From the NCBI GenBank assembly GCA_009729775.1, contig GCA_009729775.1_4081.1: 64,000 nucleotides of DNA; one strand, written 5' to 3'. A model generated the notes under the pieces. The model saw nothing but the letters and a program-made list of their open reading frames with translations. It ran no database searches and was not told the origin of the DNA. Positions 19,941 to 51,870 of the stretch are shown piece after piece. The position numbers and the translations under genes are program-made. The stretch's first letter is position 1. Every line of letters starts with the position of its first letter. Source of the DNA: Escherichia coli (GTDB lineage: Bacteria > Pseudomonadota > Gammaproteobacteria > Enterobacterales > Enterobacteriaceae).

Positions 19941-19950
19941 TGTACTTTCC

Positions 19951-20807: not shown

Positions 20808-20815
20808 TTTTTACC

Positions 20816-21010: not shown

Positions 21011-21011
21011 A

Positions 21012-24138: not shown

Positions 24139-24421
24139 AATATTTCCTTTGCCATATCATGGGCTTAAAATCAATAACAGCTTTCTGTATCTTTTTTAAT
24201 AATAAGACATCATAACCACCCGTATCAATCACTAATTGCTGTTGGAACAATTCTTCATCGGATAATGTATTGAAATCTACAAAATAATCTGTGACTATCG
24301 AATCATTTAAATGTGCCATGTACCAACCTGAACTTCTTGAATAAATCAAATTCCACCCATCGTCATTGTCTTCTAATTCAACATAAATCATATCTGGGGT
24401 ATACATCATTTTATACTTCAT
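24110..24421 (-). CDS. family A paralog
   Basis: core DEELFQQQLV. Confidence 0.65.
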   Translation of the reverse strand: MKYKMMYTPDMIYVELEDNDDGWNLIYSRSSGWYMAHLNDSIVTDYFVDFNTLSDEELFQQQLVIDTGGYDVLLLKKIQKAVIDFKPMIWQRKYYDLEVPYQQ

Positions 24422-24965: not shown

Positions 24966-25298
24966 AATTTACCTTATGGATTCGGGTGCAATAAATGATC
25001 TTGATAACTTAAATGCTCTTGTGATATTGCACTTAAATAATAACTAAAATTTTCAATACCACCCTTTAAATGTATATTGTAATACAACTTAATACTTACT
25101 AATAAAGAATCATTTAAATCATTTATTGCTTTTGTATTAACCACTTTCATTAATGTTCTTCTCTTAAAAATCGTTTGATAGCATAATCTAAATAAAATTC
25201 ATAACACATGCTATCTCTGTTCTTTATCCATATTTTGTAATCGGATTTTATATTACTTAACAAATAATTTGTATTAATTGTGTAATAATCTAATCGCC

Positions 25299-25688
25299 CT
25301 AATCGTGCCATTTAATAGGATACTCCTTTCCTTGTACTACATAAGATATAATCCATCCGTAATGAATAGGACTATTCTTTTCTCCTTTAGGAATAAAATA
25401 TAAAGATGTACTAGGATTATAACTGAATAAATCATTATTGTCAAATGTAAAATGAGATAACGTTATCTTCCTTGTACTTGGACTAATAACATTCTTAACA
25501 CCAAACACGGTATCTTGATATTTCTCTGAAAATTCAAACAATGCATCTGTAATTAAATCATTGAATTCTATACATAATGGTTTAAAAGAACCATCATTAT
25601 CTTTGAATTCCTTATATAAAGAGCTTCTTGTATTCAAAAGAAATATTACTTTTTTAAGATCCTGAACTATTTCTGGATTCATATTCAT
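25299..25688 (-). CDS. hypothetical protein
   Basis: 129 aa ORF. Confidence 0.5.
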   Translation of the reverse strand: MNMNPEIVQDLKKVIFLLNTRSSLYKEFKDNDGSFKPLCIEFNDLITDALFEFSEKYQDTVFGVKNVISPSTRKITLSHFTFDNNDLFSYNPSTSLYFIPKGEKNSPIHYGWIISYVVQGKEYPIKWHD

Positions 25689-25920
25689 TTATCTCATTCT
25701 GTATCTTAAGCATCAAAATTTGCATATTAATTTTTTGTACAAGGTGCTTGATAAATTTCTGTGCCATTTCTTCTTGTTCTTTTGTACCAAGATAAAATAA
25801 CAGATTAAATTCTGATAATCGCAAAGAAAAATCTTCATCACCACCCTTTAAACAAAAATCCCTGTACTTTGTAGCGTACAAATATTGGTTTACCTTTTTA
25901 TAATACCCTGTGTTTTGCAT
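25654..25920 (-). CDS. family B paralog
   Basis: motif FYLGTKEQEEMA. Confidence 0.6.
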   Translation of the reverse strand: MQNTGYYKKVNQYLYATKYRDFCLKGGDEDFSLRLSEFNLLFYLGTKEQEEMAQKFIKHLVQKINMQILMLKIQNEINEYESRNSSGS

Positions 25921-26108
25921 ACTATCTCCGTTCGCAACGAATTTATATAATAATGAACAAATTGTTCTTGTGAACGTGTTCCAAGAAAAATAAACATATC
26001 AAACTCTGTTGTTTTTAAATTCAATGCATCTTTTGTAAAATTCCTGTTGAATTCCCTGTACTTTTGGGTCTTCCATTCTTGATTAATTGTCTTGTATATC
26101 GATTTCAA
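25890..26108 (-). CDS. family B paralog
   Basis: motif IFLGTRSQEQFV. Confidence 0.6.
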   Translation of the reverse strand: MKSIYKTINQEWKTQKYREFNRNFTKDALNLKTTEFDMFIFLGTRSQEQFVHYYINSLRTEIVCKTQGIIKR

Positions 26109-28394: not shown

Positions 28395-28618
28395 AGTCTA
28401 TCCTTGATGCCATTTAAAAGTGCTCTAATATGCTCATTGACAAAACGCTCTTGGGAATCTGTGTTTAGAGTGAGAAGCATTCTTAAATCTGAACTTTTTA
28501 TATGATATTCTAAATCATTCTTTGATTCTCGCATAAGTTTCTGAAAGGATGAGAAGTGTAATCCCATGAGTTCAATGTATTCTGCTGTTCCTAGGGGTTT
28601 GTGTATATGTTTGTGCAT
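28391..28618 (-). CDS. family B paralog
   Basis: motif LTLNTDSQERFV. Confidence 0.65.
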   Translation of the reverse strand: MHKHIHKPLGTAEYIELMGLHFSSFQKLMRESKNDLEYHIKSSDLRMLLTLNTDSQERFVNEHIRALLNGIKDRL

Positions 28619-28830
28619 TTTAATTGTATTACCCTTTTGAGTGTATTAATGTAATTATACACATTGGCTTCTTGATAGTTAGTTCCTAGAGTAGCTTGAA
28701 CGTAGATTTCATTTAACTTAATGATTTTATCAGTATCTGGTAGTTTTGATGTGTTAATGGCAAATAACTTCAAAAACAGTCCATTTATGATTGTTAGGTA
28801 TTCTTCTTCTGTAATGATTTTCATTTGCAT
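28591..28830 (-). CDS. family B paralog
   Basis: motif ATLGTNYQEANV. Confidence 0.7.
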   Translation of the reverse strand: MQMKIITEEEYLTIINGLFLKLFAINTSKLPDTDKIIKLNEIYVQATLGTNYQEANVYNYINTLKRVIQLKCTNIYTNP

Positions 28831-29036
28831 TTTCTCAGTACTGATTCTTTAAGTTCATTGATGTAGTCCTCAATGTATTGCTCTTGTAAGTTAGTTCCAA
28901 CATATAAAAGAACTCTTAAATCGGCTCTAAGTACTTCTTTGTCATCATCATCTATATCAGACAGTGTTATGTTTAAGAATTTACTTGCATTCTCTATAAG
29001 TAATATTACTGAATCACCTTCGCTTAAAATTTTCAT
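28821..29036 (-). CDS. family B paralog
   Basis: motif LYVGTNLQEQYI. Confidence 0.7.
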   Translation of the reverse strand: MKILSEGDSVILLIENASKFLNITLSDIDDDDKEVLRADLRVLLYVGTNLQEQYIEDYINELKESVLRKCK

Positions 29037-29244
29037 AATCTCTTTTTGCTTTCCTCGCCAAAAGGTACATATACGATTCTTCGTATTGTGCTTGATAGTT
29101 TGTGTTTAAGAGTCGAAACAACTTCTGTTCTGCTAGAACGAGTTGCTTATCTTCATAACAACGATAGCGTATCAACTTTTTGTATTCGATGTTGATTACA
29201 TCCATTACTATAAGCCCATGTTCATCATCTGTCAAGTGTTTCAT
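29014..29244 (-). CDS. family B paralog
   Basis: motif RLLNTNYQAQY. Confidence 0.65.
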   Translation of the reverse strand: MKHLTDDEHGLIVMDVINIEYKKLIRYRCYEDKQLVLAEQKLFRLLNTNYQAQYEESYMYLLARKAKRDYENFKRR

Positions 29245-29470
29245 GTATCTTTTCCTTAATAGTGATTTTAAGAGATTTAATTATACGTTCAACGTGATAC
29301 TCCTGTCTATCAGTTCCAAGAAGGTATGGTAGTGCTTGGAATAGAGCTTCCGCATTCTTTTCCTCTGGGGTTTGGTTTGGATCATTAGGAAGTTGATTGG
29401 CATATCTCTTGGCACTAACTAATCTCTCGACGTATTCATTATATGTTAAGTATATCATTTCATTTTGCAT
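29225..29470 (-). CDS. family B paralog
   Basis: motif YLLGTDRQEYHV; near-identical to next gene. Confidence 0.7.
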   Translation of the reverse strand: MQNEMIYLTYNEYVERLVSAKRYANQLPNDPNQTPEEKNAEALFQALPYLLGTDRQEYHVERIIKSLKITIKEKIHETLDR

Positions 29471-29696
29471 TTACTTTTTCCTTAATAGTAATTTTAAGAT
29501 ATTTAATTATACGTTCAATGTGATACTCTTGCCTATCAGTTCCAAGAAGGTATGGTAATCTTTGGAATAAAACTTCTGCACTCCTTTCTGCTGGGGTTTG
29601 GTTTGTGTTGTGAGGAAGTTTATTTGTAAGTCTTTTGGATTTATCTAGTCTTTCTGTTAACTCATCATGTGTTAAGTATATCATTTCCTTTTGCAT
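29460..29696 (-). CDS. family B paralog
   Basis: motif YLLGTDRQEYHI; near-identical to previous gene. Confidence 0.7.
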   Translation of the reverse strand: MQKEMIYLTHDELTERLDKSKRLTNKLPHNTNQTPAERSAEVLFQRLPYLLGTDRQEYHIERIIKYLKITIKEKVNAK

Positions 29697-29923
29697 TTAA
29701 TGTTCCTTACGTAAATTGTCTGGATTAAACAATCAATCCACGTTTGAATATATTGGTTTTGATACTGTGTGCCTAAAAGACTCTGCATTTTAAACTCTGC
29801 TTCAAGTTCATATCTCTTTTCTATAGAAAAGCTTAAATGACCATATTCCCTATCGTATCTTCTATGAGCTTCGCCAAGTCTATCAAATCTTTCTGATAAT
29901 CTGATGTTATTAATTTTATTCAT
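29681..29923 (-). CDS. family B paralog
   Basis: motif SLLGTQYQNQYI. Confidence 0.7.
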   Translation of the reverse strand: MNKINNIRLSERFDRLGEAHRRYDREYGHLSFSIEKRYELEAEFKMQSLLGTQYQNQYIQTWIDCLIQTIYVRNIKCKRK

Positions 29924-30210
29924 CGCTCAGTACACCTTAGTGGACGGGTCATTTGATAAAAGTACAGCTTACCTCTGATTTCCATTAGTAATTCATTTAA
30001 TACGCGTTCTACCTCTTGTTCTTGATAGTTCGTGCCTAACAATGCACCCATCTTTAACTCACGCATCATAATCATCTTCTTACTGTGTTGAATTTCTGGG
30101 TTGTGATAGATTGTATTACGTTTAAGAGTAATTTTTGCCATACGCTCGGTATATTCATCTTTACTTAAATTAATCATTTTCATGTTAATTACCCTTACAT
30201 TTATTTTCAA
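29920..30210 (-). CDS. family B paralog
   Basis: motif ALLGTNYQEQEV; start may be internal Met. Confidence 0.65.
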   Translation of the reverse strand: MKINVRVINMKMINLSKDEYTERMAKITLKRNTIYHNPEIQHSKKMIMMRELKMGALLGTNYQEQEVERVLNELLMEIRGKLYFYQMTRPLRCTER

Positions 30211-30415
30211 TACTATTCATGAGTTCTATAAGATAGTTTTCTACCTTACCTTCCTGATAGTTAGTCCCTAGGAAGTTGCACAACACGGCTTCTATAATTT
30301 TGATTTTCCTGATATCCGACTTCAATCTTTTGTTATTGAATATTTGAATCCTTATATCTCTGGATGCATTTAAACGTTTTTGATAGTCATGGTAAGTTAA
30401 ATGAATCATTTTCAT
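30185..30415 (-). CDS. family B paralog
   Basis: motif NFLGTNYQEGKV. Confidence 0.7.
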   Translation of the reverse strand: MKMIHLTYHDYQKRLNASRDIRIQIFNNKRLKSDIRKIKIIEAVLCNFLGTNYQEGKVENYLIELMNSIENKCKGN

Positions 30416-30630
30416 TTACGTTTAACCTCTCGCTGGAGGGCATCAATTAACATTAGTACAGCATTCTCTTGATAGTTTGTTCCTAAGACTGAAAGCATCT
30501 TTATCTCATTTACTAAAATCAACTTCTTTGAGGGTTCAATAATGTGACTATCATAAACGGCCTTACGTGCTGGATAAGTTTTCGCCAGTATAACATAAAA
30601 TTCGTCTTTACTTAAATTAATCATTTGCAT
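30412..30630 (-). CDS. family B paralog
   Basis: motif SVLGTNYQENAV. Confidence 0.7.
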   Translation of the reverse strand: MQMINLSKDEFYVILAKTYPARKAVYDSHIIEPSKKLILVNEIKMLSVLGTNYQENAVLMLIDALQREVKRK

Positions 30631-30839
30631 TTACTTTTAACCTCTTTCTGTAGAGCGTCAATCCATAGATCTACATACATTTGTTGATAGTTTGTGTCTA
30701 TTAGTGCACCTACATAGAGTTCAGCTACCATTGCGTGCTTTATGTCAATAGGGATGCTCTTATCAGATTGAATCTTTCTCCTTCTGCTTCCACATGTTTT
30801 CAGGAGCCTGATGTATTCAAAACCTTGTAAATTTCTCAT
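30621..30839 (-). CDS. family B paralog
   Basis: motif ALIDTNYQQMYV. Confidence 0.65.
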   Translation of the reverse strand: MRNLQGFEYIRLLKTCGSRRRKIQSDKSIPIDIKHAMVAELYVGALIDTNYQQMYVDLWIDALQKEVKSKCK

Positions 30840-31051
30840 ATTTTGGATACCACCTTGTTACGTAAGGAACTTAATAATACGTCAGTGTAGATGTTTTGAT
30901 AGTTTGTTCCTACGAATGCACCCAACTTCATTTCAGCTATTATAACACATTTGTCCTCTTGTGCAATAGACTTGTCTAAAGAAATACTAACAACTTTCCC
31001 TCTTATAGTTTGTAACCTCCAATGATACTGATACTCATTAAGGATTATCAT
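30836..31051 (-). CDS. family B paralog
   Basis: motif AFVGTNYQNIYT. Confidence 0.7.
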   Translation of the reverse strand: MIILNEYQYHWRLQTIRGKVVSISLDKSIAQEDKCVIIAEMKLGAFVGTNYQNIYTDVLLSSLRNKVVSKI

Positions 31052-31298
31052 TCTCTCGTCTCCAGATTTCGGTTCTCATGTGTTGGCAGTGTGCATCAAT
31101 ATATTGCTCTATCGATCTGGCGATTGCTGTTTTATCAGTGCCTGTCATCAGTACAAGCATCTCTGCCTCACTATGAATTAAACGCATGATATCATAGGGT
31201 AATATTTCAGATACTGTATCATAGTGTTTGTGTGTCAGTGTCTGCAATAGTTTACAATACATTTTGTGATTTAGTCTTTGTCGCATTGTTTCTTCCAT
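31038..31298 (-). CDS. family B paralog (divergent)
   Basis: motif region LMTGTDKTAIA, same size and position in array. Confidence 0.5.
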   Translation of the reverse strand: MEETMRQRLNHKMYCKLLQTLTHKHYDTVSEILPYDIMRLIHSEAEMLVLMTGTDKTAIARSIEQYIDAHCQHMRTEIWRRENDNP

Positions 31299-31543
31299 TC
31301 TCTTCTGGCTTGACGGGTTTTTTCTGATATTTCGTTTCTCAATGCAGAGATATATCGTAGAGTGAACAGTTCTTGATAGTTAGTCCCTATGAATTTATTA
31401 AGATATACATCAGCGTTGACGATATCAGCTTCACGGGAATTATAAAGTTTATTGTTCGTGCGAAGGGTGTTTAGAAGAGAGAAGAGGGCAGTCTGATACT
31501 CAGTGCTTGATAAAGTTTTCATATTTTTCCACAATTCGTTCAT
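31271..31543 (-). CDS. family B paralog
   Basis: motif KFIGTNYQELFT. Confidence 0.65.
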   Translation of the reverse strand: MNELWKNMKTLSSTEYQTALFSLLNTLRTNNKLYNSREADIVNADVYLNKFIGTNYQELFTLRYISALRNEISEKTRQARREWKKQCDKD

Positions 31544-31757
31544 TTAGTTTTATCTGTATAAGATCCATTAGTTGTTCAAGATAATCGGTACAATATTTCT
31601 CTTGATATTGGGTTCCCACAAAGTACAGCAACCATAGCTCATGAACTTTAACTTTCATCTCGTTCCATGAAAGTGCATCGTCATCGTAGATTACTCTTGC
31701 TTCTGGGGTGAGCTTTCTAACTCTAATTGAATATTCATCGTCAGTTAAGTGTTTCAT
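31500..31757 (-). CDS. family B paralog
   Basis: motif YFVGTQYQEKYC. Confidence 0.65.
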   Translation of the reverse strand: MKHLTDDEYSIRVRKLTPEARVIYDDDALSWNEMKVKVHELWLLYFVGTQYQEKYCTDYLEQLMDLIQIKLNERIVEKYENFIKH

Positions 31758-31972
31758 TTACATTTATCCCTTATTAGATTTGTGAGGGCAACTATGTGTG
31801 CAACAACATACTCTTCCTGAAAGTTCGTCCCCAGTACAGCCATCATGCGTATATCGGTGGTGTTTATCCTGTGTTCCCTTACACATAAACCTTCTTTGTG
31901 AGGAAGTGTAAAATATTTGTTTATTGCAGCAATGACAATTTTATTCTTCTCGGTGATACTTAAATGTTTCAT
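31754..31972 (-). CDS. family B paralog
   Basis: motif AVLGTNFQEEYV. Confidence 0.7.
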   Translation of the reverse strand: MKHLSITEKNKIVIAAINKYFTLPHKEGLCVREHRINTTDIRMMAVLGTNFQEEYVVAHIVALTNLIRDKCK

Positions 31973-32181
31973 AGTTTACTCCTGATATAATTCTGAAGTG
32001 CAATTAAGTATTCCCCTACATAATACACCTGAAAGTCTGTATCAAGGAATGCACCCATAAGTAAATCTTTTTCTAATACCCTTGATAAGTTAAGGTCTGC
32101 ATTTGAAAGGTATATAAGTAAGATTTCACCCTGTGCGGAATTGAAACGTTTCTTATATTCTTCTGGTGTTAAAAAAATCAT
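31969..32181 (-). CDS. family B paralog
   Basis: motif AFLDTDFQVYYV; close paralog of next gene. Confidence 0.65.
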   Translation of the reverse strand: MIFLTPEEYKKRFNSAQGEILLIYLSNADLNLSRVLEKDLLMGAFLDTDFQVYYVGEYLIALQNYIRSKL

Positions 32182-32393
32182 AATTTGCTCCTGATATATT
32201 TCTCAAGAGATGACAAATACTTTTCCTCATAATACTTCTGATAGTCTGTTCCTAAGAATGCACCCAATAGTATATCATTTTCCAATACCTCGGCTAAGTT
32301 TAAATCAGAAGTCTCTTCGTATATTATGAGGATTTCAAGTTGTCTGGCAGCGATGCGTTCAGTATATTGATATGAGTTTTCTATAATAATCAT
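32178..32393 (-). CDS. family B paralog
   Basis: motif AFLGTDYQKYYE. Confidence 0.7.
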   Translation of the reverse strand: MIIIENSYQYTERIAARQLEILIIYEETSDLNLAEVLENDILLGAFLGTDYQKYYEEKYLSSLEKYIRSKL

Positions 32394-32599
32394 AATTTAC
32401 TCTTTATATCTTCTATTAAAAATCGAATCCATTCTTCAACATAATCTTCCTGATGGTTTGTGTTCAGTACAGCCAACATGCGGATCTCTGCTCTTGCAAC
32501 TTCAATTTCAGTTTTAGGAAGGTCTTTGCTGATATCCACCATTAAGTCCATGTATTTCAAGATAAGTCCGAATGATTGGGTTCGTGTTATAGTTTTCAT
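32390..32599 (-). CDS. family B paralog
   Basis: motif AVLNTNHQEDYV. Confidence 0.65.
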   Translation of the reverse strand: MKTITRTQSFGLILKYMDLMVDISKDLPKTEIEVARAEIRMLAVLNTNHQEDYVEEWIRFLIEDIKSKL

Positions 32600-32796
32600 T
32601 GTTTCCTCGTGGACAATGTTTTATTTTTCAATGTATCCACATATTTCGTTACCCATGCATCCTGATAGTTAGTTCCCAATGTAATCAAAAGGTATAACTC
32701 CATTCGTTCTACGTGTGAGTCTGTATTATAAATCTTTGTGAAGTTTTTACGTAACAGTGCTTGATATTCTTTTTCGGTTAATTTACGCATTTTCAT
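32596..32796 (-). CDS. family B paralog
   Basis: motif ITLGTNYQDAWV. Confidence 0.7.
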   Translation of the reverse strand: MKMRKLTEKEYQALLRKNFTKIYNTDSHVERMELYLLITLGTNYQDAWVTKYVDTLKNKTLSTRKQ

Positions 32797-32990
32797 AGTT
32801 TACTCGTTACATCTTCAATTAAATACCAAATCCAATCGTTGACATACCTTTCCTGAAAGTTAGTTCCAATGAATAGTGCCATAATTAATTCACGCTTATA
32901 GGCAATACCACGGTCATGGGACTTATACATTATCATAGCCATGTTATTGATAAGTCTTTCGTGGTGTTCTGCTTGAGTTAAAATACGCAT
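32793..32990 (-). CDS. family B paralog (first gene of array)
   Basis: motif LFIGTNFQERYV; start set at internal Met (MRILTQ) with AAGGGAG RBS; the track start at 33020 would lie inside the promoter. Confidence 0.6.
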   Translation of the reverse strand: MRILTQAEHHERLINNMAMIMYKSHDRGIAYKRELIMALFIGTNFQERYVNDWIWYLIEDVTSKL

Positions 32991-33020
32991 AGGGACTCCC
33001 TTAAAATTAATATCAATCAT

Positions 33021-33048
33021 ATTTTATACGATTTGTATAAAAAGTCAA
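33021..33048 (-). promoter_or_regulatory. sigma70-like promoter for the family B array (TTGACT-16-TAAAAT)
   Basis: read on reverse complement immediately upstream of first family B gene. Confidence 0.45.
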
Positions 33049-33239
33049 TAACATTTTATTCGTAATACCCCTTTATCGAAGTCGCTAAGGTTACCCGCCC
33101 TTTAGCCCCCTACGCATTTTGCCATAGTCCAATCCCTTTTATTTCAAAAAAGTCAAGGGATTACCTATGCATTTTTTTAACGCATAATTTTAAAAACGCC
33201 TTGACTTTTTTCTGAATCAGTACTAGATCCCTTTACGCA

Positions 33240-35138: not shown

Positions 35139-35212
35139 GATGTTTCCCCTTTAGTTAGTAAAGTTAATACAACAGTACTATCACGCATTGTCAATAGTAC
35201 TGAAATAAAACT

Positions 35213-35437
35213 TTAGATTAGATTATTGATGCCGTTGATGGTAGACTCGCTTTCTTCTTTCTCCCATTGGCGGTAATACTTCCATGCTTCATGATAGGTG
35301 GCGATCAGTTCATCTTTTTGATCCTGAGTACATGCCAGTACTGAATCACTGTAAGCGGTGTTATAGATAGAATCAAATGATTTCTTCTCTTCTGCCAGGG
35401 TAGCTACTTCCCGCATCAGTTCATCAAAGTTAGCCAT
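35213..35437 (-). CDS. hypothetical protein
   Basis: start at MANFDELM; track extension covers 5' hairpin. Confidence 0.55.
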   Translation of the reverse strand: MANFDELMREVATLAEEKKSFDSIYNTAYSDSVLACTQDQKDELIATYHEAWKYYRQWEKEESESTINGINNLI

Positions 35438-38417: not shown

Positions 38418-38516
38418 GGTGTACATCCTATTAGTTAAGTTAATTAGTACTACAAGTTAGAGTCTATTATAAAGTACTATCTGGGTAATGTCAAATAGTA
38501 CTTTAAATGGATTCTA

Positions 38517-38840
38517 TTACATGTCTTTCTTACGTTTTACATCGTAGTAACGAACTGTAATTTCTTTGTTGATCTCTTCCTCAATTCTGTGTAGTACTTT
38601 CTCTTTCGGGTTGAAACCTATTACAGTTTCTTTAATGATCTCCAAGCCCGTGTATTCGCCTTGTGTACCGTAACCGTAAGTAAAGGTTTCATGTCCCAGG
38701 TCTTCCCAGCGGTCACCAATCAATGCAGACACGTAGCATGAGTGGTAAGTATTGCCGTGGCTATCAGTCCACCGATTAACTTTAATGTCAAAGGAAGTTA
38801 CAATTTTCATTTCTACTTTCTGGGTAAGGATCATAGCCAT
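38517..38840 (-). CDS. hypothetical protein, paralog of 45141..45485
   Basis: shared GNTY, YGYG and C-terminal VKRKKD motifs. Confidence 0.6.
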   Translation of the reverse strand: MAMILTQKVEMKIVTSFDIKVNRWTDSHGNTYHSCYVSALIGDRWEDLGHETFTYGYGTQGEYTGLEIIKETVIGFNPKEKVLHRIEEEINKEITVRYYDVKRKKDM

Positions 38841-42526: not shown

Positions 42527-42670
42527 ACATCTTGCGGATAATCTTAACAGTATCTTTCACCGATTTACCGTCTTGCTGACATTGTTCGATCATCGCGTAT
42601 TGTTCTGCGGTCAGATCCTCGCCAGTTTTTGCCAGTACTGCGTCGATGAATGAATCCAGTGCGATCATTT
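42527..42670 (-). CDS. hypothetical small protein (below track cutoff)
   Basis: 47 aa ORF MIALDSFIDAVLAK... Confidence 0.3.
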
Positions 42671-42767
42671 TATTTCTCTCTTAGGTTAAGTTAACTACTG
42701 TTGATAAAAGTTATTATACAGTACTATCAAACATTGTCAATAGATTTAATAGTACTGGTAATATATT

Positions 42768-42947
42768 TTAGCGGTAATCGTCGTATGCTTTATTAACCTG
42801 GCGAATGTAACTTTCAAAGGCTTCGTCTACCGTTTCATACTCCCGAACATAATCACCATAGGAAACTACATACATCCCTTTTTGATCTTCAAACGTCATG
42901 ATGATAGAATCCAGTCCGATGATTTCAGTTTTTGCGATAATAGCCAT
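42768..42947 (-). CDS. hypothetical protein
   Basis: start at MAIIAKTEI; repeated promoter cassette upstream. Confidence 0.5.
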   Translation of the reverse strand: MAIIAKTEIIGLDSIIMTFEDQKGMYVVSYGDYVREYETVDEAFESYIRQVNKAYDDYR

Positions 42948-43038
42948 TTTAGTATTCCTTAAATTAATATGCGTTGTCTTGATAAAAGTTATTATGCCAG
43001 TACTATCAAACGTTGTCAATAGTACTGTGATAATATTT

Positions 43039-43251
43039 TTAGTTAATGATAGTCAGTGTAAAATTGTAATCCCCTGCCTGGTATAGTACTTTATCGCCGA
43101 ACGTGCCAACACGTTTCATATTGCAATAGATACCCATAACATTTTTTACATCTTTGATATTCCGAACGCCAGTGATATCCTTGTTGAAATTTTCATGATC
43201 AGAAAATAAAACTTGTTTTGCATTTTTCAGTACAGTGCAGATATTAGCCAT
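43039..43251 (-). CDS. hypothetical protein
   Basis: 70 aa ORF. Confidence 0.5.
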   Translation of the reverse strand: MANICTVLKNAKQVLFSDHENFNKDITGVRNIKDVKNVMGIYCNMKRVGTFGDKVLYQAGDYNFTLTIIN

Positions 43252-43270
43252 TTCGATTTCTCTCTGTTAG

Positions 43271-43338
43271 TAGGGAAGTACTGTTACTTCCCGTGCCTTG
43301 ATGTAAACTATTATACAGTACTATAATCTATTGTCAAA
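43271..43338 (-). promoter_or_regulatory. early promoter cassette (TTGACA-16-TATAAT) and hairpin GGGAAGTA-acag-TACTTCCC
   Basis: reverse complement of intergenic region. Confidence 0.5.
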
Positions 43339-43351
43339 CTATTTTTTAATA

Positions 43352-43693
43352 TTATTCAAAATCTTCTGGACCGGACTGATAATCATCCTCACCGTATGCA
43401 CTTTCTAACTTCTCGCCAGTGTAATCATCAGTTAGTGAGTCATCCTCATAGTTCACGTCTACGCCCGTGATGTAAAACTGGCTATCGTCTGGATCATTGA
43501 AATTAATTTTCTGAATGTTTACAATAACTGTATTGATACCCAGGACACAGCCATCAGCCGTTACAAAGTACTGATATTTTTCACATCCACCACTATTGAA
43601 ACCGTAATTGATTTCGGCCCGACCATCATTTAAACGCAGTGCCTGAGCGATGATTTCGTTTTCAAAGTTAGATTGAGCAATTGCAATAGTCAT
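43352..43693 (-). CDS. hypothetical acidic protein
   Basis: 113 aa ORF. Confidence 0.55.
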   Translation of the reverse strand: MTIAIAQSNFENEIIAQALRLNDGRAEINYGFNSGGCEKYQYFVTADGCVLGINTVIVNIQKINFNDPDDSQFYITGVDVNYEDDSLTDDYTGEKLESAYGEDDYQSGPEDFE

Positions 43694-43789
43694 GATTCGT
43701 TTCCTTATTACCAGGGGAAACCGTTTCCCCTTGCGATGTAAAACATTATACGCCTATTGATATAGTTTGCAAGTACTTTTTATCAAATA

Positions 43790-43920
43790 CTTTAAAATAG
43801 TTTTCAGTACTCAATCATTATACAATAGATACACTTATGCACCCTGTGGGCTAGTGAGCTATCTCTCAATGAATACATAATAGCAAAATGGCTGACCGAA
43901 GTCAACCACTTTTTTTCATT
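43790..43920. repeat. repeated intergenic composite element, copy 4 (more diverged hairpin)
   Basis: as above. Confidence 0.5.
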
Positions 43921-44054
43921 TATTTTTAGCTTTTAGAATCGCCGCCTTTCGCGTCATGCCTTGCTTGATGTACTCCTTTACTTTCGCTTTACGTGCTTTC
44001 GCTTTATCTGCTTTCGTTTTAGGAGTACTGTAAATTAAACCGTTAGGATTCATT
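43917..44054 (-). CDS. hypothetical small basic protein (below track cutoff)
   Basis: 45 aa Lys-rich ORF MNPNGLIYSTPKTKADKAKARKAK... Confidence 0.3.
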
Positions 44055-44139
44055 TAAATCACCATAAAGAATAGATAGGTTACTAACAATGCCGCCAGTA
44101 CTGCACCGACCAGGGCCGAACTATAGTAAGCTAATGATT

Positions 44140-44292
44140 TCATTTTTTAGCCTGAAAGTAATGTTTAATTTGTGCGGCGGTCAGTGCACAATTACGCAGG
44201 AAGTTTTCTGTATAACTTTTACGAGTACTGAAAGAGTACTGACCTTTCCCGTTACCGATAGTAACATCAAACCGAGCGTTATATTGTTTCAT
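44140..44292 (-). CDS. hypothetical small protein
   Basis: start at MKQYNARFD; track MVLP extension is hairpin. Confidence 0.45.
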   Translation of the reverse strand: MKQYNARFDVTIGNGKGQYSFSTRKSYTENFLRNCALTAAQIKHYFQAKK

Positions 44293-44309
44293 TTTGTTTC
44301 TCCTAGTAT

Positions 44310-44382
44310 CGGGGAGAACCATTCCCCCCCTCTATGTAAACAATTATACAGTACTGAAAACTAATTGCAAGTACTTTCTAAG
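44310..44382 (-). promoter_or_regulatory. early promoter cassette (TTGCAA..TATAAT) and 5' hairpin
   Basis: reverse complement of intergenic region. Confidence 0.5.
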
Positions 44383-44567
44383 TAATGTTTATAAGCTGAA
44401 TCAACCACTCTTTCGATAACATACGCTAACGGCACGTATCCAACTACATGACTACAATAAAAAGGACTACGATTAGAATCATCGTATGCAAATACTTTTT
44501 CAGGATCTGCATCAATCACATACATATTAACCTTTAAGATGTCTATCTTATCCTGTACAGTAAGCAT
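44361..44567 (-). CDS. hypothetical protein
   Basis: start at MLTVQDK; upstream part of track ORF overlaps another small ORF in a different frame. Confidence 0.45.
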   Translation of the reverse strand: MLTVQDKIDILKVNMYVIDADPEKVFAYDDSNRSPFYCSHVVGYVPLAYVIERVVDSAYKHYLESTCN

Positions 44568-44571
44568 ATTA

Positions 44572-44742
44572 CGCCGCCTTATCAGTACTGGCAACCGGAC
44601 GGATACGGGCCATTTCATGGGCTTGTTCCACACTGTAACGCTCATAAAGGCGGCATTCTTCCGGTGTAGGAACAGCATCAATACGTTTCATTGGTTTAAT
44701 GATGCTTTCAACTTCATTCAGTACTTGATTAACGTTCATGGT
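44572..44742 (-). CDS. hypothetical small protein (below track cutoff)
   Basis: 56 aa ORF MNVNQVLNEVES..., stop 2 nt before next ATG. Confidence 0.35.
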
Positions 44743-44790
44743 ATAATCCCCAATATAAGCGGCCTAAATCGACCGCTAACGATGTTTTGA

Positions 44791-45060
44791 TTAATAGGTG
44801 TATGGTTGACGCTCAAACAATGATTGCACGTTGTACGCCCCGCTAATGGGCTTTGCTGGCAAATCAATTTTATATTGTTCACGCTTAAAAATAATAAAAC
44901 GGCAATTGTTTTTAACATCAAAATTGATTGAACGTTCCAATAGCTTTCCTTCGTGTACAAATACAAGATAACCGCTTGCTACTTGTTTTGTAGTACTGGT
45001 TGCAACCATTGACCGACGAACATGAGTACCTGCATCGATTAAAGTACTGATATTTTTCAT
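44791..45060 (-). CDS. hypothetical protein
   Basis: 89 aa ORF. Confidence 0.5.
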   Translation of the reverse strand: MKNISTLIDAGTHVRRSMVATSTTKQVASGYLVFVHEGKLLERSINFDVKNNCRFIIFKREQYKIDLPAKPISGAYNVQSLFERQPYTY

Positions 45061-45140
45061 TTTACTATCCTCTTAATTTGATTTAATTTCTTTCCCCTAT
45101 GCAGACACTATATCAAAGTATCTGCATAAAGTAAAGCTAA

Positions 45141-45485
45141 TTAAAGATCTTTTTTGCGTTTAACATCAGTTACCGAACTGTAAACAGTGATATTATTGTC
45201 ACGGCAAAAACGGGAAAGATAAGAACCGCGTAAAAACTCTTTATCTTCCATATTAATAACCTTGCTAAATTCTTCCATTGCTACAGTGTCAAAGTGATCC
45301 CCGTATCCATATTGGAACGGCACGTTTACTACTTCAATAAAATTACCATCAATTTCTACGTCTACACTTAAAGAGAAATAAGTGTTACCATATGAAGCCT
45401 GGAACCAACGCCGAGCGGCAATATGTACAACTTCAACAGAAGACAGGTTGATATTTTGTGCTGAGATAGTGTTGATGTTAGCCAT
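45141..45485 (-). CDS. hypothetical protein, paralog of 38517..38840
   Basis: shared motifs, C-terminal VKRKKDL. Confidence 0.6.
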   Translation of the reverse strand: MANINTISAQNINLSSVEVVHIAARRWFQASYGNTYFSLSVDVEIDGNFIEVVNVPFQYGYGDHFDTVAMEEFSKVINMEDKEFLRGSYLSRFCRDNNITVYSSVTDVKRKKDL

Positions 45486-45566
45486 TTTAATTTCCTCTTA
45501 GTTGTCTTGATAAAATCTATTATGCCAGTACTATCAAACTATGTCAATAGTACTGTGATAATAATT

Positions 45567-45779
45567 TTACTTACTTTGCTTTGATGCTTTATGTTGTGCA
45601 ACTGCCATCACTACATCAGCACGAACAAAGTTAGCAACCGTATCAGTATAATATTTGATTGCATCGTCAATATCTGCGAACATCCGATACATTCCGCACC
45701 ATGATACTTTATAACCCGCTTTCACTTGTTCCAGTTTAACCAGTGAATTGTTTACTTTGATTTTTGTAATGATAGCCAT
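45567..45779 (-). CDS. hypothetical protein
   Basis: 70 aa ORF, N-terminus MAIITK similar to 42768..42947. Confidence 0.5.
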   Translation of the reverse strand: MAIITKIKVNNSLVKLEQVKAGYKVSWCGMYRMFADIDDAIKYYTDTVANFVRADVVMAVAQHKASKQSK

Positions 45780-45862
45780 TTTTGTTTCCTCTTAGTTGTC
45801 TTGATAAAATCTATTATGCCAGTACTATCAATCTATGTCAATAGTACTGTGATAATAATTTT

Positions 45863-46006
45863 ACTTACTTTTTGCTTTCTTTATTGCTTCCACCTGGTCG
45901 GCCCACTCTTTACCCCATACTTGAGCGTTATAGTGATACTGACAAAGAGCAACGCCCCGTTTCAAACCAGTGATAGATTTTTTACCACATTGACAAGTTT
46001 TCATTT
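45863..46006 (-). CDS. hypothetical small Cys-containing protein (below track cutoff)
   Basis: 47 aa ORF MKTCQCGKKS...CQYH with its own promoter-hairpin cassette and RBS. Confidence 0.4.
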
Positions 46007-46020
46007 TTAGTTTCCTCTTA

Positions 46021-46086
46021 GTGGGGAGAATCATTTCTCCCCTTGATGTAATGTATTATACTTTATCCGATTTACTTTGCAAGTAC
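46021..46086 (-). promoter_or_regulatory. early promoter cassette (TTGCAA..TATAAT) and hairpin GGGGAGAA-tcat-TTCTCCCC
   Basis: reverse complement of intergenic region. Confidence 0.5.
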
Positions 46087-46089
46087 TTT

Positions 46090-46317
46090 TTAGTTTAATT
46101 CATCCAGGCATAAGATACGATCTACGCCGAGATCCGTTAAGCTAATGGTTGGCACTTGATAGGTTTCAATGTATTCTACACTAGCCCACTGACCGAACTC
46201 ATTCACCGCCCAGGTATTCATTGCAAAATGTAATTCCGCACCTTTCTTATTAGTAATTACAGCAACAGTAGAAGAATTGCCAGTAGTACCAGATACGCGA
46301 GTGATTACGATAGCCAT
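46090..46317 (-). CDS. hypothetical protein
   Basis: 75 aa ORF. Confidence 0.5.
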   Translation of the reverse strand: MAIVITRVSGTTGNSSTVAVITNKKGAELHFAMNTWAVNEFGQWASVEYIETYQVPTISLTDLGVDRILCLDELN

Positions 46318-46750
46318 TGTTTTGATTCCTATTCAGTAGTTGATGTATGTATTATGTCAGTACTTAAAACTATTGTCAAACTATTTTTTAAAGACTATCT
46401 ACGATAGCTGCCGTTTCAATAATAGACTTACCTTTTTTTGAACATGCAATAACTGCTTTAAATTCCTTTGATGACCATTCTTTTTTACTGCATACTAACA
46501 TTACTTGCATAGTGAAACAATCCAGTTCATAAGTATTCATCTTTAAATCCTCAGTTAGTTAAGGTGTCTTGCCTTGATGTAACTAATTATACGCCTTTCT
46601 CTTAATCGTGCAAGTACTTTTTATTACTTTTTGCAAAATACTTTAAACGCTCTCAATCGCATTCTAACGGCCTTAACTCCACCAGCTAGGGCGATGCATC
46701 AGATAATCAGTTTAATGCGTTAGAATCGATTCTATGAGGTGCTGACGGTC

Positions 46751-46786
46751 TGGAATGCAATAAAAACAAAAAAGCCCACTGCTTAT
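46751..46786 (-). terminator. rho-independent terminator
   Basis: AGCCCAC-N8-GTGGGCT hairpin with long U-tract on minus strand after stop of 46816..47313. Confidence 0.6.
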
Positions 46787-46815
46787 AGTGGGCTAGTGAT
46801 TCAGTACTTTAAATG

Positions 46816-47482: not shown

Positions 47483-47520
47483 TAATACAAAAACAAAAAA
47501 GCCCACTGTTTAAGGTGGGC
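47483..47520 (-). terminator. rho-independent terminator
   Basis: GCCCAC-N8-GTGGGC hairpin with U-tract on minus strand after stop of 47539..47838. Confidence 0.6.
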
Positions 47521-47538
47521 TAGTGATTCAGTACTAGA

Positions 47539-48266: not shown

Positions 48267-48396
48267 TTGACAAGTGCATCCAGTACTGGCATAATACTTA
48301 CATAAAGACGAGATAGTCACTAACCCACAGGGTGCATAGATCCGTCTATTAAATGATTCAGTACTGCAAAATAAAGGGGATCAATTGATCCCCTCT
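48267..48396 (+). ncRNA. candidate small RNA unit: plus-strand promoter (TTGACA-17-CATAAT), conserved CCCACAGGGTGCAT core, hairpin
   Basis: promoter at 48267-48295, no ORF, ends at palindromic hairpin; core shared with other copies. Confidence 0.25.
48365..48396. terminator. palindromic hairpin, possible bidirectional terminator
   Basis: GGGGATC-aatt-GATCCCC with T-rich flanks on both sides. Confidence 0.4.
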
Positions 48397-51778: not shown

Positions 51779-51870
51779 TTGCTTTATTTTTCCAGTACTG
51801 TATAATAGTTTCATCAAGTCGAGAAAGACTCAAGCCCACCGGGTGCATAGTTGTATCTAAAATTCAGTAC
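51779..51870 (+). ncRNA. candidate small RNA unit driven by TTGCTT-16-TATAAT
   Basis: promoter 51779-51806; downstream GTCGAGAAAGACTCAAGCCCACCGGGTGCATAG element. Confidence 0.2.

What the first reader, a model, noticed from the sequence alone, without database searches (positions are those of the whole stretch)
42690..45870. Second promoter cassette type repeated three to four times, driving MAII-start genes
The unit TTGTCTTGATAAAA[GT][CT]TATTATGCCAGTACTATCAA..TGTCAATAGTACTG recurs at about 42965-43030, 45490-45560 and 45785-45870, with a relative at 42690-42760. The first two precede genes starting MAIIAK / MAIITK. It lacks the GC hairpin and has a CATAAT -10.
Basis: seen in the sequence. 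Interest (0 to 1): 0.4.

Follow-up and report, generated by a model that had tools for sequence, protein, structure and literature searches.

The report
Repeated early-promoter cassette in jumbo phage
A roughly 90-base unit found three times here is a strong bacterial-type early promoter folded into an AT-rich palindrome, sitting between tiny genes of a giant E. coli phage; it also seems to serve as a recombination point where those genes are gained, lost or swapped, as already described for T4-type phages.

Summary
The repeat is real. Three minus-strand copies (about 42948-43038, 45486-45566 and 45780-45860) are 74-93% identical over 105 nt. The median among 33 strong promoters in the window is 59%. 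The copy at 42669-42767 is a true but diverged member.

Each copy fills a whole intergenic gap. It runs from the upstream stop codon through an A/T-rich tract, TTGACA, a 17-nt spacer, TGnCATAAT, a short unstructured leader and AAGAGGA to the ATG.

As RNA it folds at -17 to -20 kcal/mol (z about -4.9). It is kept in 33 distinct copies from E. coli, Erwinia and Klebsiella jumbo phages.

MAIIAK and MAIITK are unrelated proteins.

Close relatives (121Q, SHEFM2K, phAPEC6, slurp01, PBECO4, EJP2) differ by gene insertion, deletion or replacement exactly at these cassettes. One junction cassette in 121Q is chimeric. An unrelated Vequintavirinae phage carries the same gene flanked by the same cassettes.

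The best reading is a PeSL-like promoter/stem-loop cassette in an Asteriusvirus-like phage: a new member of a known kind. No transcript ends were mapped, so promoter and attenuator activity are inferred.

The parts
42948..43038 (-). Cassette copy A. It is the whole intergenic gap between the stop of the MANICT gene and the ATG of MAIIAK. -35 TTGACA at 43014-43019; -10 CATAAT at 42991-42996 preceded by TGG; SD AAGGA at about 42956-42960.
42983..43041 (-). Promoter-spanning inverted repeat of copy A (ATTATCACAGTACTAT / ATAGTACTGGCATAAT plus outer A/U pairs). The RNA fold is -17.1 kcal/mol, z -5.0.
   Evidence: (I17)
45486..45566 (-). Cassette copy B, between the stop of MAIITK and the ATG of MANINT. 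-35 at 45542-45547; -10 CATAAT at 45519-45524; SD AAGAGGA at 45493-45499.
45510..45570 (-). Promoter-spanning inverted repeat of copy B. The RNA fold is -20.4 kcal/mol, z -4.85. It is followed by AGAUUUUAUC.
   Evidence: (I18)
45780..45860 (-). Cassette copy C, between the stop of the MKTCQC gene and the ATG of MAIITK. -35 at 45836-45841; -10 CATAAT at 45813-45818; SD AAGAGGA at 45787-45793.
45804..45864 (-). Promoter-spanning inverted repeat of copy C. The RNA fold is -20.3 kcal/mol, z -4.87.
   Evidence: (I19)
42669..42767 (-). TTGACA at 42735-42740, 16-nt spacer, TATAAT at 42713-42718. The 5' AGTACTAT arm is displaced by a ~9-nt insertion. The hairpin folds at -16.4 kcal/mol, z -2.9.
42768..42947 (-). 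Gene driven by copy A: 59 aa, MAIIAK..., PHROG 9374, unknown function.
45141..45485 (-). Gene driven by copy B: 114 aa, MANINT..., PHROG 6246. It has a paralogue at 38517-38840. In 121Q, slurp01 and PBECO4 a 34%-identical paralogue takes its place.
45567..45779 (-). Gene driven by copy C and flanked by copies C and B: 70 aa, MAIITK..., PHROG 35559. It is absent from SHEFM2K, phAPEC6 and slurp01, and present in 121Q, PBECO4 and Vequintavirinae phage W70.
42525..42668 (-). Gene driven by the diverged member: 47 aa, MIALDS..., PHROG 34103.
45861..46004 (-). Upstream gene of copy C (47 aa, MKTCQC...). Its last codons and stop (AGT AAG TAA) belong to the repeated unit. The MAIITK gene ends with the same bases.
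43039..43251 (-). Upstream gene of copy A (70 aa, MANICT...). In phage W70 its homologue sits upstream of the cassette that drives MAIITK instead.
38466..38500 (-). Another promoter with an AGTACT-based palindrome spanning it (AAAGTACTATTTGACA...GATAGTACTTTATAAT). The promoter-spanning fold is -19.9 kcal/mol and the leader is unstructured.
35160..35218 (-). Degenerate family member (AGTACTATTGACAATGCGTGATAGTACTG, weak -10) upstream of the MEQFKT gene.

Best explanation
The three copies are a subfamily of the sigma-70-type early promoters of an Asteriusvirus-like (121Q/PBECO4-type) jumbo coliphage. They are built as self-contained intergenic cassettes.

Each cassette carries, in order:
- the last codons and stop of the upstream ORF;
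- an A/T-rich UP-like tract;
- TTGACA, a 17-nt spacer and TGnCATAAT;
- a ~26-nt unstructured leader with a strong Shine-Dalgarno sequence;
- ATG GCT.

Host RNA polymerase is inferred to start about 7 nt after the -10, giving a short message for the next small gene.

An inverted repeat based on two AGTACT motifs 22 bp apart encloses the -35 and includes the -10. It therefore appears only in RNA that reads through from upstream. There it forms a hairpin followed by a U-rich stretch. It is inferred to attenuate read-through or to give the upstream message a stable 3' end.

Because the 80-125-nt unit is repeated, it also acts as a homology patch for recombination. Genes bounded by cassettes are inserted, deleted or replaced between related phages. 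This is the behaviour described for PeSL (promoter-early stem-loop) cassettes of T4-type phages.

Shown here: the repeat, the promoter-like anatomy, conservation of the palindrome, and gene-content breakpoints at the cassettes.
Inferred: promoter activity, the transcription start, attenuation, and the recombination mechanism.
For: Repeat and subfamily:
- B-C are 93% and A-B/C 74-76% identical, against a 59% median among 33 promoters.

Promoter anatomy:
- 11/12 consensus matches with an extended -10 TG in all three copies; the SD and ATG are correctly placed; each cassette fills the whole gap between minus-strand ORFs.
- In vB_Ec-M-J the homologous cassette lies inside the annotated 21.5-kb direct terminal repeat, among small ORFs.
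- RpoD-like promoters upstream of short hypothetical ORFs were predicted in the related phage CBB (PMC5259590).

Palindrome:
- RNA fold of -17 to -20 kcal/mol, z about -4.9, with 0/200 shuffles as good.
- Among the 33 promoters, five (including these four) have a strong promoter-spanning hairpin and an unstructured leader. About 20 have the opposite pattern, a GC hairpin in the leader. So a stem-loop is a near-constant component whose position varies.
- In 33 distinct copies from E. coli, Erwinia and Klebsiella jumbo phages, metagenomes and W70, 92.6% of pair cells are paired. The covariation score is 0.067 against 0.034 in shuffles (0/500 reach it), with two compensatory pairs.

Shuffling:
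- The window has a 294-bp insertion (MAIITK gene plus one cassette) relative to SHEFM2K, with the alignment blocks overlapping on the single SHEFM2K cassette.
- All four combinations of +/-MAIITK with MANINT or its 34%-identical paralogue exist among the window, 121Q, SHEFM2K/phAPEC6 and slurp01. EJP2 joins MAIIAK to MKNIST through a cassette.
- The 121Q cassette upstream of gp282 is chimeric, with a B/C-type 5' part and an A-type 3' part.
- W70 (Vequintavirinae) carries MAIITK flanked by the same cassettes.

The PeSL definition and its subclasses by stem-loop position come (PMC2839356; PMC4122927).
Against: - There are no transcript 5' or 3' ends, reporter data or expression data for this phage group. 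I found none in the papers searched.
- The hairpin is AU-rich, contains a 2x2 internal loop and two G-U pairs, and is followed by only four U's. The simple terminator scan did not call it, and the phage has canonical GC-rich terminators elsewhere, for example 46773-46794. Strong termination is therefore doubtful.
- The inner 9-10 bp of both arms are sequence-invariant in 39 of 40 copies. That fits sequence-specific recognition at least as well as a purely structural role.
- The main covarying pair separates the E. coli phages from the Erwinia/Klebsiella phages. It may be one or a few events, and the tool warns that relatedness alone can beat its shuffles.
- Recombination at the cassettes is inferred from present-day arrangements. 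It was not observed.
Confidence: 0.7

Rival explanations
1. The palindrome is chiefly a DNA operator. A dimeric phage- or host-encoded protein recognises two (C)AGTACT(G)-containing half-sites 22 bp apart, straddling the -35 and abutting the -10. It switches this subset of early promoters off or on. RNA folding would be incidental. This could coexist with the promoter-cassette reading.
For: - Both arms are sequence-invariant (CAGTACTAT / ATAGTACTG) in 39 of 40 distinct copies across E. coli, Erwinia and Klebsiella phages and metagenomes, while the loop and flanks vary.
- AGTACT is enriched 12-fold in the window (253 against 21.6 expected) and 15-20-fold in the relatives' early regions. It is enriched 5.9-fold in the 121Q structural region, in all three reading frames, which points to DNA-level selection on the motif.
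- The only copy with altered AGTACT arms lies in W70, a genome without AGTACT enrichment.
- Symmetric half-site changes would also look like covariation.
Against: - No candidate binding protein was identified.
- The upper stem relies on two G-U pairs (UUGA/UUGA). These pair only in RNA of the sense strand and are mismatches in a DNA palindrome.
- The W70 variant keeps pairing (AGCGCU with AGUGCU: one compensatory change plus one G-U) rather than identical half-sites.
- AGTACT also occurs at the same two positions in hairpin-in-leader promoters, with different spacing (20 bp) and without an extended palindrome.
Confidence: 0.2
2. The cassette is a bidirectional promoter. The mirrored arm reads TGTGATAAT on the + strand, an extended -10 with GATAAT, and would fire an antisense transcript into the 3' end of the upstream gene.
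For: In all three window copies and in the 121Q and SHEFM2K copies, the + strand reads CAGTACTGTGATAAT. nhmmer also matches the cassette weakly in reverse orientation.
Against: - The + strand -35 position reads TCAAAC or ATCAAA, only 2-3 of 6 matches (read directly).
- The consensus scan did not list this site at its threshold of 9/12 matches.
- In many Erwinia, Klebsiella and metagenome copies the 5' arm reads AATTACTC, TTTTACTCC or AATTAGTC. The reverse complement of these lacks A at -11 or T at -7, so the antisense -10 is not conserved although the cassette is.
Confidence: 0.06
3. The copies resemble each other only because all strong sigma-70 promoters and ribosome-binding sites converge on the same consensus.
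For: The window holds at least 33 promoters close to consensus, and they share AGTACT-containing spacers.
Against: - B-C identity is 93% over 105 nt. It covers non-consensus positions, the last codons and stop of two different upstream genes, and the leader. The family median is 59% and the 95th percentile 70%.
- The same unit is 95-100% identical in about 30 related genomes.
Confidence: 0.02
4. The unit is an autonomous or parasitic mobile element, such as a MITE-like palindromic repeat or a homing target, that spreads by its own mechanism. Promoter-likeness would be secondary.
For: It is a palindromic repeat with 3-5 unique copies per genome. It is present in an unrelated phage family (W70) and marks gene-content breakpoints.
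Against: - Every copy is in the same orientation as the flanking genes and exactly fills a stop-to-start gap with a correctly placed SD and ATG.
- There are no target-site duplications and no associated transposase or nuclease gene in the cassette-bounded modules; the products are 47-114 aa with no Pfam hit.
- In W70 the cassettes arrived within a ~4-kb block together with other jumbo-phage-type genes and promoters, not alone.
Confidence: 0.02

Closest known systems
PeSL (promoter-early stem-loop) cassettes of T4-type phages RB49/phi1, PST and nt-1 (Arbiol et al. 2010, PMC2839356; Comeau et al. 2014, PMC4122927)
   Same: - A sigma-70-consensus early promoter with an AT-rich upstream tract.
- A stem-loop whose position relative to the -35 and -10 varies between subclasses, including overlap with the boxes.
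- A unit that runs from the upstream stop codon to the downstream SD and start codon.
- Dense occurrence between small ORFans.
- Insertions, deletions and replacements between close relatives bounded by the cassettes, with chimeric cassettes at junctions.
   Different: - The host phage is a Rak2/121Q-type jumbo phage, not a T4-type phage, and there is no sequence homology to the RB49 PeSLs.
- The stem is AU-rich and built on two AGTACT motifs rather than GGGG...CCCC.
- Promoter activity, terminator activity and mini-circles were demonstrated experimentally for PeSLs. Nothing has been demonstrated here.
RpoD-like early promoters with an UP-like element, predicted in the Rak2-like jumbo phage vB_PcaM_CBB (Buttimer et al. 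2017, PMC5259590)
   Same: Same phage supergroup. These are TTGACA/TATAAT-type promoters concentrated upstream of short hypothetical ORFs thought to be early genes, some of them in the terminal repeat.
   Different: In the parts of that paper I read, there is a consensus and a list of sites. There are no cassette subfamilies, no promoter-spanning palindrome, no AGTACT motif and no role in gene shuffling.
The hairpin-in-leader promoter cassettes of the same window
   Same: Same overall architecture, the same AGTACT elements beside the -35 and before the -10, a related initial transcribed sequence (TTTACATCAAG against TTTTATCAAG) and the same SD region.
   Different: - The first type has a 16-nt spacer, TATAAT without a canonical TGn, and a GGGGAGAA...TTCTCCCC hairpin inside the 5' leader.
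- The second type has a 17-nt spacer, TGnCATAAT, an unstructured leader, and the stem-loop moved onto the promoter itself.
Palindromic operators overlapping phage early promoters (general class, for example lambda or P22 repressor/Cro operators). This comparison is from my own knowledge.
   Same: An inverted repeat overlapping the -35 and -10, with conserved half-site sequence.
   Different: No cognate repressor is known. The half-site motif is also enriched genome-wide, inside genes, which operators are not. Part of the pairing relies on G-U.

Membership tests
PeSL-type promoter/stem-loop cassette (functional class, Arbiol 2010) | Sigma-70 consensus early promoter with an AT-rich upstream region | tested here: met
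   TTGACA-17-CATAAT with TG at -15/-14, 11/12 matches in all three copies. The upstream tract is AAGTAAAATTATTAT.
PeSL-type promoter/stem-loop cassette (functional class, Arbiol 2010) | A stable stem-loop within or next to the promoter (between, overlapping, upstream or downstream of the boxes) | tested here: met
   -17 to -20 kcal/mol, z about -4.9. The stem encloses the -35 and includes the -10. It is AU-rich rather than polyG/polyC, which is a difference in kind of stem, not in presence.
PeSL-type promoter/stem-loop cassette (functional class, Arbiol 2010) | The unit spans the upstream stop codon to the downstream SD and start, between small ORFan genes in a plastic region | tested here: met
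   The gaps of 81-91 nt are wholly occupied. The flanking products are 47-114 aa with no Pfam hit and PHROGs of unknown function.
PeSL-type promoter/stem-loop cassette (functional class, Arbiol 2010) | Indels and replacements between close relatives are bounded by the cassettes, with chimeric cassettes at junctions | tested here: met
   A 294-bp gene-plus-cassette indel against SHEFM2K. Four module combinations across seven genomes. A chimeric 121Q cassette.
PeSL-type promoter/stem-loop cassette (functional class, Arbiol 2010) | Demonstrated promoter activity and terminator activity of the stem-loop | not testable with these tools
   This needs reporter assays or 5'/3'-end mapping. The simple terminator scan did not call the hairpin.
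PeSL-type promoter/stem-loop cassette (functional class, Arbiol 2010) | Formation of cassette-bounded mini-circles during infection | not testable with these tools
   This needs inverse PCR on infected cells or virion DNA.
PeSL-type promoter/stem-loop cassette (functional class, Arbiol 2010) | Sequence homology to the RB49/phi1 PeSLs, or residence in a T4-type phage | tested here: not met
   The window is 90-95% identical to Asteriusvirus genomes. The stem sequence is AGTACT-based, not GGGG/CCCC. It is therefore an analogue in a new clade, not a homologue.
Intrinsic (Rho-independent) terminator | A G+C-rich stem followed directly by a run of at least 5-7 U | tested here: inconclusive
   The inner stem has 12 pairs, only 4 of them G-C, and 2 G-U. 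The tail is AGAUUUUAUC, with four U's. It was not called by the scan, which did call 46773-46794.
Extended -10 sigma-70 promoter | TG at -15/-14, one base upstream of the -10 hexamer | tested here: met
   TGGCATAAT in copies A, B and C ('TG_before_second: yes'). The hairpin-in-leader promoters have TG directly abutting TATAAT and score 'no'.

The most novel reading that the evidence does not exclude
The two AGTACT half-sites in the cassette may not be just promoter spacer sequence. They could be binding sites for a clade-specific factor that reads (C)AGTACT(G). This palindrome is enriched 6- to 20-fold genome-wide in Rak2/121Q-type jumbo phages, inside genes in all three frames. It is absent from two islands of the window and is not enriched in an unrelated phage that borrowed the cassette. 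On this reading the cassette is where an undescribed genome-wide DNA-motif system meets early transcription. That system could be a phage nucleoid or condensation protein, a self-marking system, or a global transcription or replication factor.
Probability: 0.15. Interest if true: 0.7.

Novelty: new member of a known kind. Interest (0 to 1): 0.35.

Why it matters
If correct, promoter/stem-loop cassettes that both express and shuffle small accessory genes are not special to T4-type phages. They also operate in the 350-kb Rak2/121Q-type jumbo phages, in the terminal-repeat region expected to be transcribed early. Together with their genes they can move into unrelated phage families such as Vequintavirinae.

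This gives a concrete, testable mechanism for the fast turnover of the hundreds of unknown small early genes in jumbo phages. It also gives a practical handle for annotation: the cassettes define true gene starts, for example MAIIAK at 42947 rather than the TTG at 43019. They could also serve as portable strong promoters or insertion points for engineering. The finding extends a known principle; it is not a new kind of system.

Tried and rejected
- Rfam (gathering thresholds) and ARAGORN on the whole window gave no hits, so the cassette and its leader match no curated RNA family.
- Pfam on the six flanking proteins gave nothing. PHROGs gave only 'unknown function' families.
- BLASTP of MAIIAK against MAIITK gave no alignment even at E<=100. 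I therefore rejected the idea that the cassette marks one paralogous gene family.
- The IMG/VR pattern scan returned only 121Q and RaK2. The metagenome scan added about 20 copies, all with AGTACT intact. Four further loci were chance promoter look-alikes without the 5' arm, and I excluded them.
- Covariation on the first 19 copies was no better than shuffles. Only the enlarged set of 33 copies gave a modest signal, and I treat that as suggestive only.
- Literature: I found no promoter or motif analysis in the Sharanji or phAPEC6 papers. There were no papers combining AGTACT with jumbo phage. A search for CAGTACTG returned only primer noise.
- I considered and rejected three readings: an antisense promoter as a conserved feature (the arm is not conserved as a -10), a MITE or transposon (fixed orientation, no target-site duplication, no enzyme gene), and chance or consensus similarity.
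- I also considered recognition of a DNA hairpin by a phage RNA polymerase, as in N4. I dropped it because the sequence is a near-perfect sigma-70 promoter. This rejection rests partly on my own knowledge that this phage group encodes sigma factors rather than its own polymerase. That agrees with the CBB paper.

Full report
**Source of the window.** The region 42000-46800 matches Asteriusvirus jumbo coliphages (SHEFM2K, 121Q, phAPEC6, PBECO4, slurp01 and others, 348-385 kb) at 90-95% identity. No record is identical. The window is 34% G+C. A greedy ORF tiling gives 132 minus-strand and 16 plus-strand ORFs, mostly small. The genes around the finding are on the minus strand.

**Checking the observation.**
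- The repeat finder groups the three copies as a 125-nt family at 42925-43049, 45453-45577 and 45747-45871. The last two are 89% identical.
- I aligned 105 nt around the -10 of all 33 strong minus-strand promoters in the window. Copies B and C are 93% identical and copy A is 74-76% identical to them. The median over all pairs is 59% and the 95th percentile 70%.
- The shared positions include non-consensus bases, the leader, and the last codons plus stop (AGT AAG TAA) of two different upstream genes.
- The 'relative' at 42690-42760 is 64-67% identical. It differs mainly by a ~9-nt insertion between the upstream AGTACTAT and TTGACA. A metagenomic relative (L017) carries the same cassette without that insertion, so it is a true family member.
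- One stated detail is wrong. Read on the coding strand, copy A drives MAIIAK (42947 down to 42768), copy C drives MAIITK (45779 down to 45567), and copy B drives MANINT (45485 down to 45141).

**Anatomy, read on the minus strand.** Each copy occupies the entire 81-91-nt gap between two ORFs. In order it contains:
- the upstream stop codon;
- AAAATTATTATCAC;
- AGTACTA-TTGACA;
- a 17-nt spacer ending GATAGTACTG;
- G-CATAAT;
- AGATTTTATCAAGACAAC;
- TAAGAGGAAA;
- 6-7 nt, then ATG GCT.

The consensus scan scores all three at 11/12 with TG at -15/-14. The window's more common cassette type has a 16-nt spacer, TATAAT without a canonical TGn, and a GGGGAGAA...TTCTCCCC hairpin in the leader. So 'no GC hairpin' and 'CATAAT' are both correct. 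Across the wider family, however, the first base of the -10 hexamer varies (CATAAT, TATAAT, also TAGAAT). C at that position is therefore not a defining feature.

The repeat finder reports 22-nt arms, 82% complementary and 12 nt apart, in all three copies (I17-I19).
- Folded as sense-strand RNA, the segment forms a 12-pair inner stem (CAGUACUAUUGA / UUGAUAGUACUG, including two G-U pairs). Beyond it lie a 2x2 internal loop and outer AUUAU/AUAAU and A/U pairs.
- The energies are -17.1 to -20.4 kcal/mol, with z about -4.9 and no shuffle out of 200 folding as well.
- The -35 lies in the apical part of the 5' arm and the loop, and the -10 lies in the 3' arm. Only RNA reading through from upstream contains the hairpin. 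The cassette's own transcript, if it starts about 7 nt after CATAAT, begins just past it.
- Among the 33 promoters the two locations of structure are complementary. Five promoters (45519, 45813, 42991, 42713, 38466) have a promoter-spanning fold of -16.6 to -20.4 kcal/mol and an unstructured leader (-0.5 to -3.1). About 20 have a weak promoter-spanning fold and a leader hairpin of -10 to -18.
- So 'type 2' is better described as the same cassette design with the stem-loop moved onto the promoter.

**Conservation of the palindrome.** A profile built from the three copies finds the family in several places:
- 121Q and SHEFM2K;
- Erwinia phage Hallingskeid, with at least 9 copies in 32 kb;
- Klebsiella phages K64-1 and RaK2;
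- metagenome contigs, found by a pattern scan.

A BLAST search finds 196 places in 50 phage records, typically 3-5 unique copies per genome.

In 40 distinct copies the core CAGTACTAT...ATAGTACTG is invariant, with one exception.
- On 19 copies the structure showed no covariation beyond shuffles.
- On 33 distinct copies, 92.6% of cells pair and the covariation score is 0.067 against 0.034 in shuffles (0/500 reach it). Two pairs show compensatory changes.
- One of those pairs links the base just after the -10 hexamer with a base about 45 nt upstream (A-U in 16 copies, U-A in 14). It separates the E. coli phages from the Erwinia/Klebsiella phages, so it may reflect few events.
- The other is the exceptional copy in phage W70. 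There AGTACT became AGCGCT in the 5' arm and AGTGCT in the 3' arm, which keeps all six pairs through one compensatory change and one G-U.
- Taken together, the inverted-repeat symmetry is under selection. The data do not separate an RNA hairpin from a symmetric protein-binding site.

**Downstream genes.**
- MAIIAK (59 aa) and MAIITK (70 aa) share no detectable similarity.
- The four downstream products fall in four different PHROGs of unknown function and have no Pfam match.
- In relatives the same cassette precedes genes starting MNQKQY, MDILL, MTGIEL, MSRKT, MSNVT, MSTIKF, MFSVS and MRIKL.
- 'MA' starts are common in this region whatever the promoter type: 10 of the 45 listed ORFs start with MA, and an eleventh (listed from 48651) does if it begins at its internal Met-Ala.
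- The repeat extends only through ATG GCT A. The shared N-terminus is therefore either the 3' edge of the cassette or a favourable start context. I did not resolve which. It is not evidence of related genes.

**Gene shuffling at the cassettes.**
- Against SHEFM2K, window 44576-45577 and 45769-46330 align to blocks that overlap by 104 nt on the single SHEFM2K cassette. The window thus carries a 294-bp insertion of one gene (MAIITK) plus one cassette.
- I mapped the window's proteins onto seven genomes. This is what lies between the conserved MKTCQC and MKNIST genes:

| Genome | Arrangement between MKTCQC and MKNIST |
|---|---|
| Window | cassette, MAIITK, cassette, MANINT |
| 121Q | cassette, MAIITK, cassette, gp282 (a 34%-identical paralogue of MANINT) |
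| SHEFM2K, phAPEC6 | cassette, MANINT |
| slurp01 | cassette, gp282-type |

- PBECO4 lacks MKTCQC.
- EJP2 has MANICT, cassette, MAIIAK, cassette, MKNIST.
- All four combinations of presence or absence of MAIITK with the two paralogues exist. This is what exchange within the cassettes predicts.
- The 121Q cassette upstream of gp282 is chimeric. It is B/C-like through ATCAAGACAAC and A-like afterwards, through its A-type SD region (ACATATTAATTTAAGGAATACTAAA).

**Transfer to an unrelated phage family.** tblastn with MAIITK finds 81%-identical homologues in 137-145-kb Vequintavirinae phages (W70, A7_1, A5-4).
- In W70 the gene is flanked by the same two cassettes, including the AGT AAG TAA gene end.
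- Upstream of it lies a homologue of the window's MANICT gene. In the window, that gene sits upstream of copy A and MAIIAK.
- This W70 patch of about 4 kb also carries hairpin-in-leader cassettes and MAIVIT and MKTCQC homologues.

**Location.** In vB_Ec-M-J the homologous cassette lies inside the annotated 21.5-kb direct terminal repeat. Sharanji has a 20.7-kb terminal repeat. This fits, but does not prove, very early expression.

**Comparison with what is known.** The closest described system is the PeSL.
- Their subclasses are defined by where the stem-loop sits relative to the -35 and -10.
- They have demonstrated promoter and terminator activity, and they mediate indels, replacements and mini-circle formation.
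- Four defining features could be tested here and are met: promoter, stem-loop, stop-to-start unit between ORFans, and breakpoints with chimeric junctions.
- Activity and mini-circles cannot be tested with these tools.
- Homology and residence in a T4-type phage are not met. This is an analogue in a different clade, with an AU-rich AGTACT-based stem.
- For the Rak2-like group I found only a prediction of RpoD-like promoters with UP-like elements upstream of short early ORFs in phage CBB. I found nothing on cassette subfamilies, palindromes or shuffling.

**Mechanism I commit to (confidence about 0.7).**
- Host sigma-70 RNA polymerase starts at each cassette and makes a short message for the next small gene. 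This is inferred from sequence.
- The promoter-spanning hairpin plus U-rich tail acts on read-through RNA from the upstream gene, as an attenuator or a 3'-end stabiliser. This is inferred and the weakest step. The stem is AU-rich, the tail has only four U's, and the simple scan did not call it, although it did call canonical terminators nearby.
- The repeated 80-125-nt units serve as homology for recombination that moves cassette-bounded genes. This is supported by the comparative data.
- The main rival, which is not exclusive, is that the invariant AGTACT half-sites are an operator for a sequence-specific factor.

**The AGTACT motif.** The rival reading draws weight from a striking side observation.
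- AGTACT occurs 253 times in the window against 21.6 expected. CAGTACTG occurs 60 times.
- 167 of the AGTACT copies lie inside ORFs, in all three frames.
- Enrichment is 15-20-fold in the early regions of 121Q, K64-1 and Hallingskeid. It is 5.9-fold in a 50-kb structural region of 121Q.
- It is absent from W70 outside the borrowed patch.
- I found no description of this motif.

**Verdict.** The repeat is real and is not explained by consensus. Its link to 'MAII' genes is spurious. Its most interesting property is that it marks recombination joints for small early genes within the jumbo-phage clade and across to another phage family. This is a new member of a known kind, and I score interest at 0.35.

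Noticed in passing
whole window; also loci L002 (Erwinia phage Hallingskeid), L003 (K64-1), L004 and L026 (121Q): The palindrome AGTACT is hugely over-represented: 253 copies against 21.6 expected in the window (12-fold). GTACTG is 14-fold enriched and CAGTACTG occurs 60 times. 167 of the AGTACT copies lie inside ORFs, in all three frames. Only about 30 are explained by the promoter elements AGTACTGTATAAT and AGTACTTGCA. Enrichment is 15-20-fold in relatives' early regions and 5.9-fold in a 121Q structural region. Most other 6-bp palindromes are at or below expectation. I found no description of this in the literature searched.
   Followed up: partly
window about 18800-26000 and 28400-33200: Two islands of tightly packed small minus-strand ORFs contain essentially no AGTACT (0 in the 20-24 kb bin, 4 in the 28-32 kb bin), although the motif occurs at about 3-7 per kb elsewhere. 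This may reflect a different origin or a different constraint.
   Followed up: no
window 34508, 36426, 39790, 42149, 43839, 50139 (+ strand) and 48324-48335, 51835-51846 (- strand): There are eight copies of GCACCCTRTGGG (0.12 expected), embedded in a ~40-nt conserved block AGATACAYTT..GCACCCTRTGGGYTAGTGA. In four copies (34508, 36426, 39790, 43839) an intrinsic terminator follows about 45 nt later (AAGGGACTGACCGGAGTCAATCCCTTTTTT), and three of these (all but 34508) start right after a -10 element. This suggests a family of ~85-90-nt small RNAs, some antisense to the gene flow. There is no Rfam match.
   Followed up: partly
L013 (Escherichia phage W70, Vequintavirinae) about 18000-24000; window 42768-46317: An rV5-like 137-kb phage carries a ~4-kb patch with homologues of the window's MAIVIT, MKTCQC, MANICT and MAIITK genes. 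The patch includes both cassette types and all 8 of the AGTACT sites found in the 45 kb examined. This points to horizontal transfer of gene-plus-cassette modules between unrelated coliphage families.
   Followed up: partly
window 33000-53500, minus strand: Ten of the 45 small early ORFs listed start with Met-Ala, and an eleventh (the ORF listed from 48651) does if it begins at its internal Met-Ala. Several share ATGGCTA(A/T)(C/T)AT (MAIIAK, MAIITK, MAIVIT, MANINT, MANICT), whatever promoter type precedes them. This could be a translation-start preference or the 3' edge of recombining cassettes.
   Followed up: partly
window 46762-46808 and 47489-47535: A 47-nt direct repeat (94% identical) contains a canonical GC-rich terminator hairpin (AGCCCAC...GTGGGCT plus a T run) followed by TGATTCAGTACT. 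This is another repeated regulatory unit in the same region.
   Followed up: no
window 45141-45485 and 38517-38840; 121Q gp282 (L004 20397-20720): These form a small paralogous family (PHROG 6246, 31-39% identity). Different members occupy the same cassette-bounded slot in different Asteriusvirus genomes.
   Followed up: partly
window 42768-43019: The mechanical ORF call begins at a TTG inside cassette A (83 aa). The cassette anatomy and the annotated homologues place the true start at the ATG at 42947 (59 aa).
   Followed up: yes
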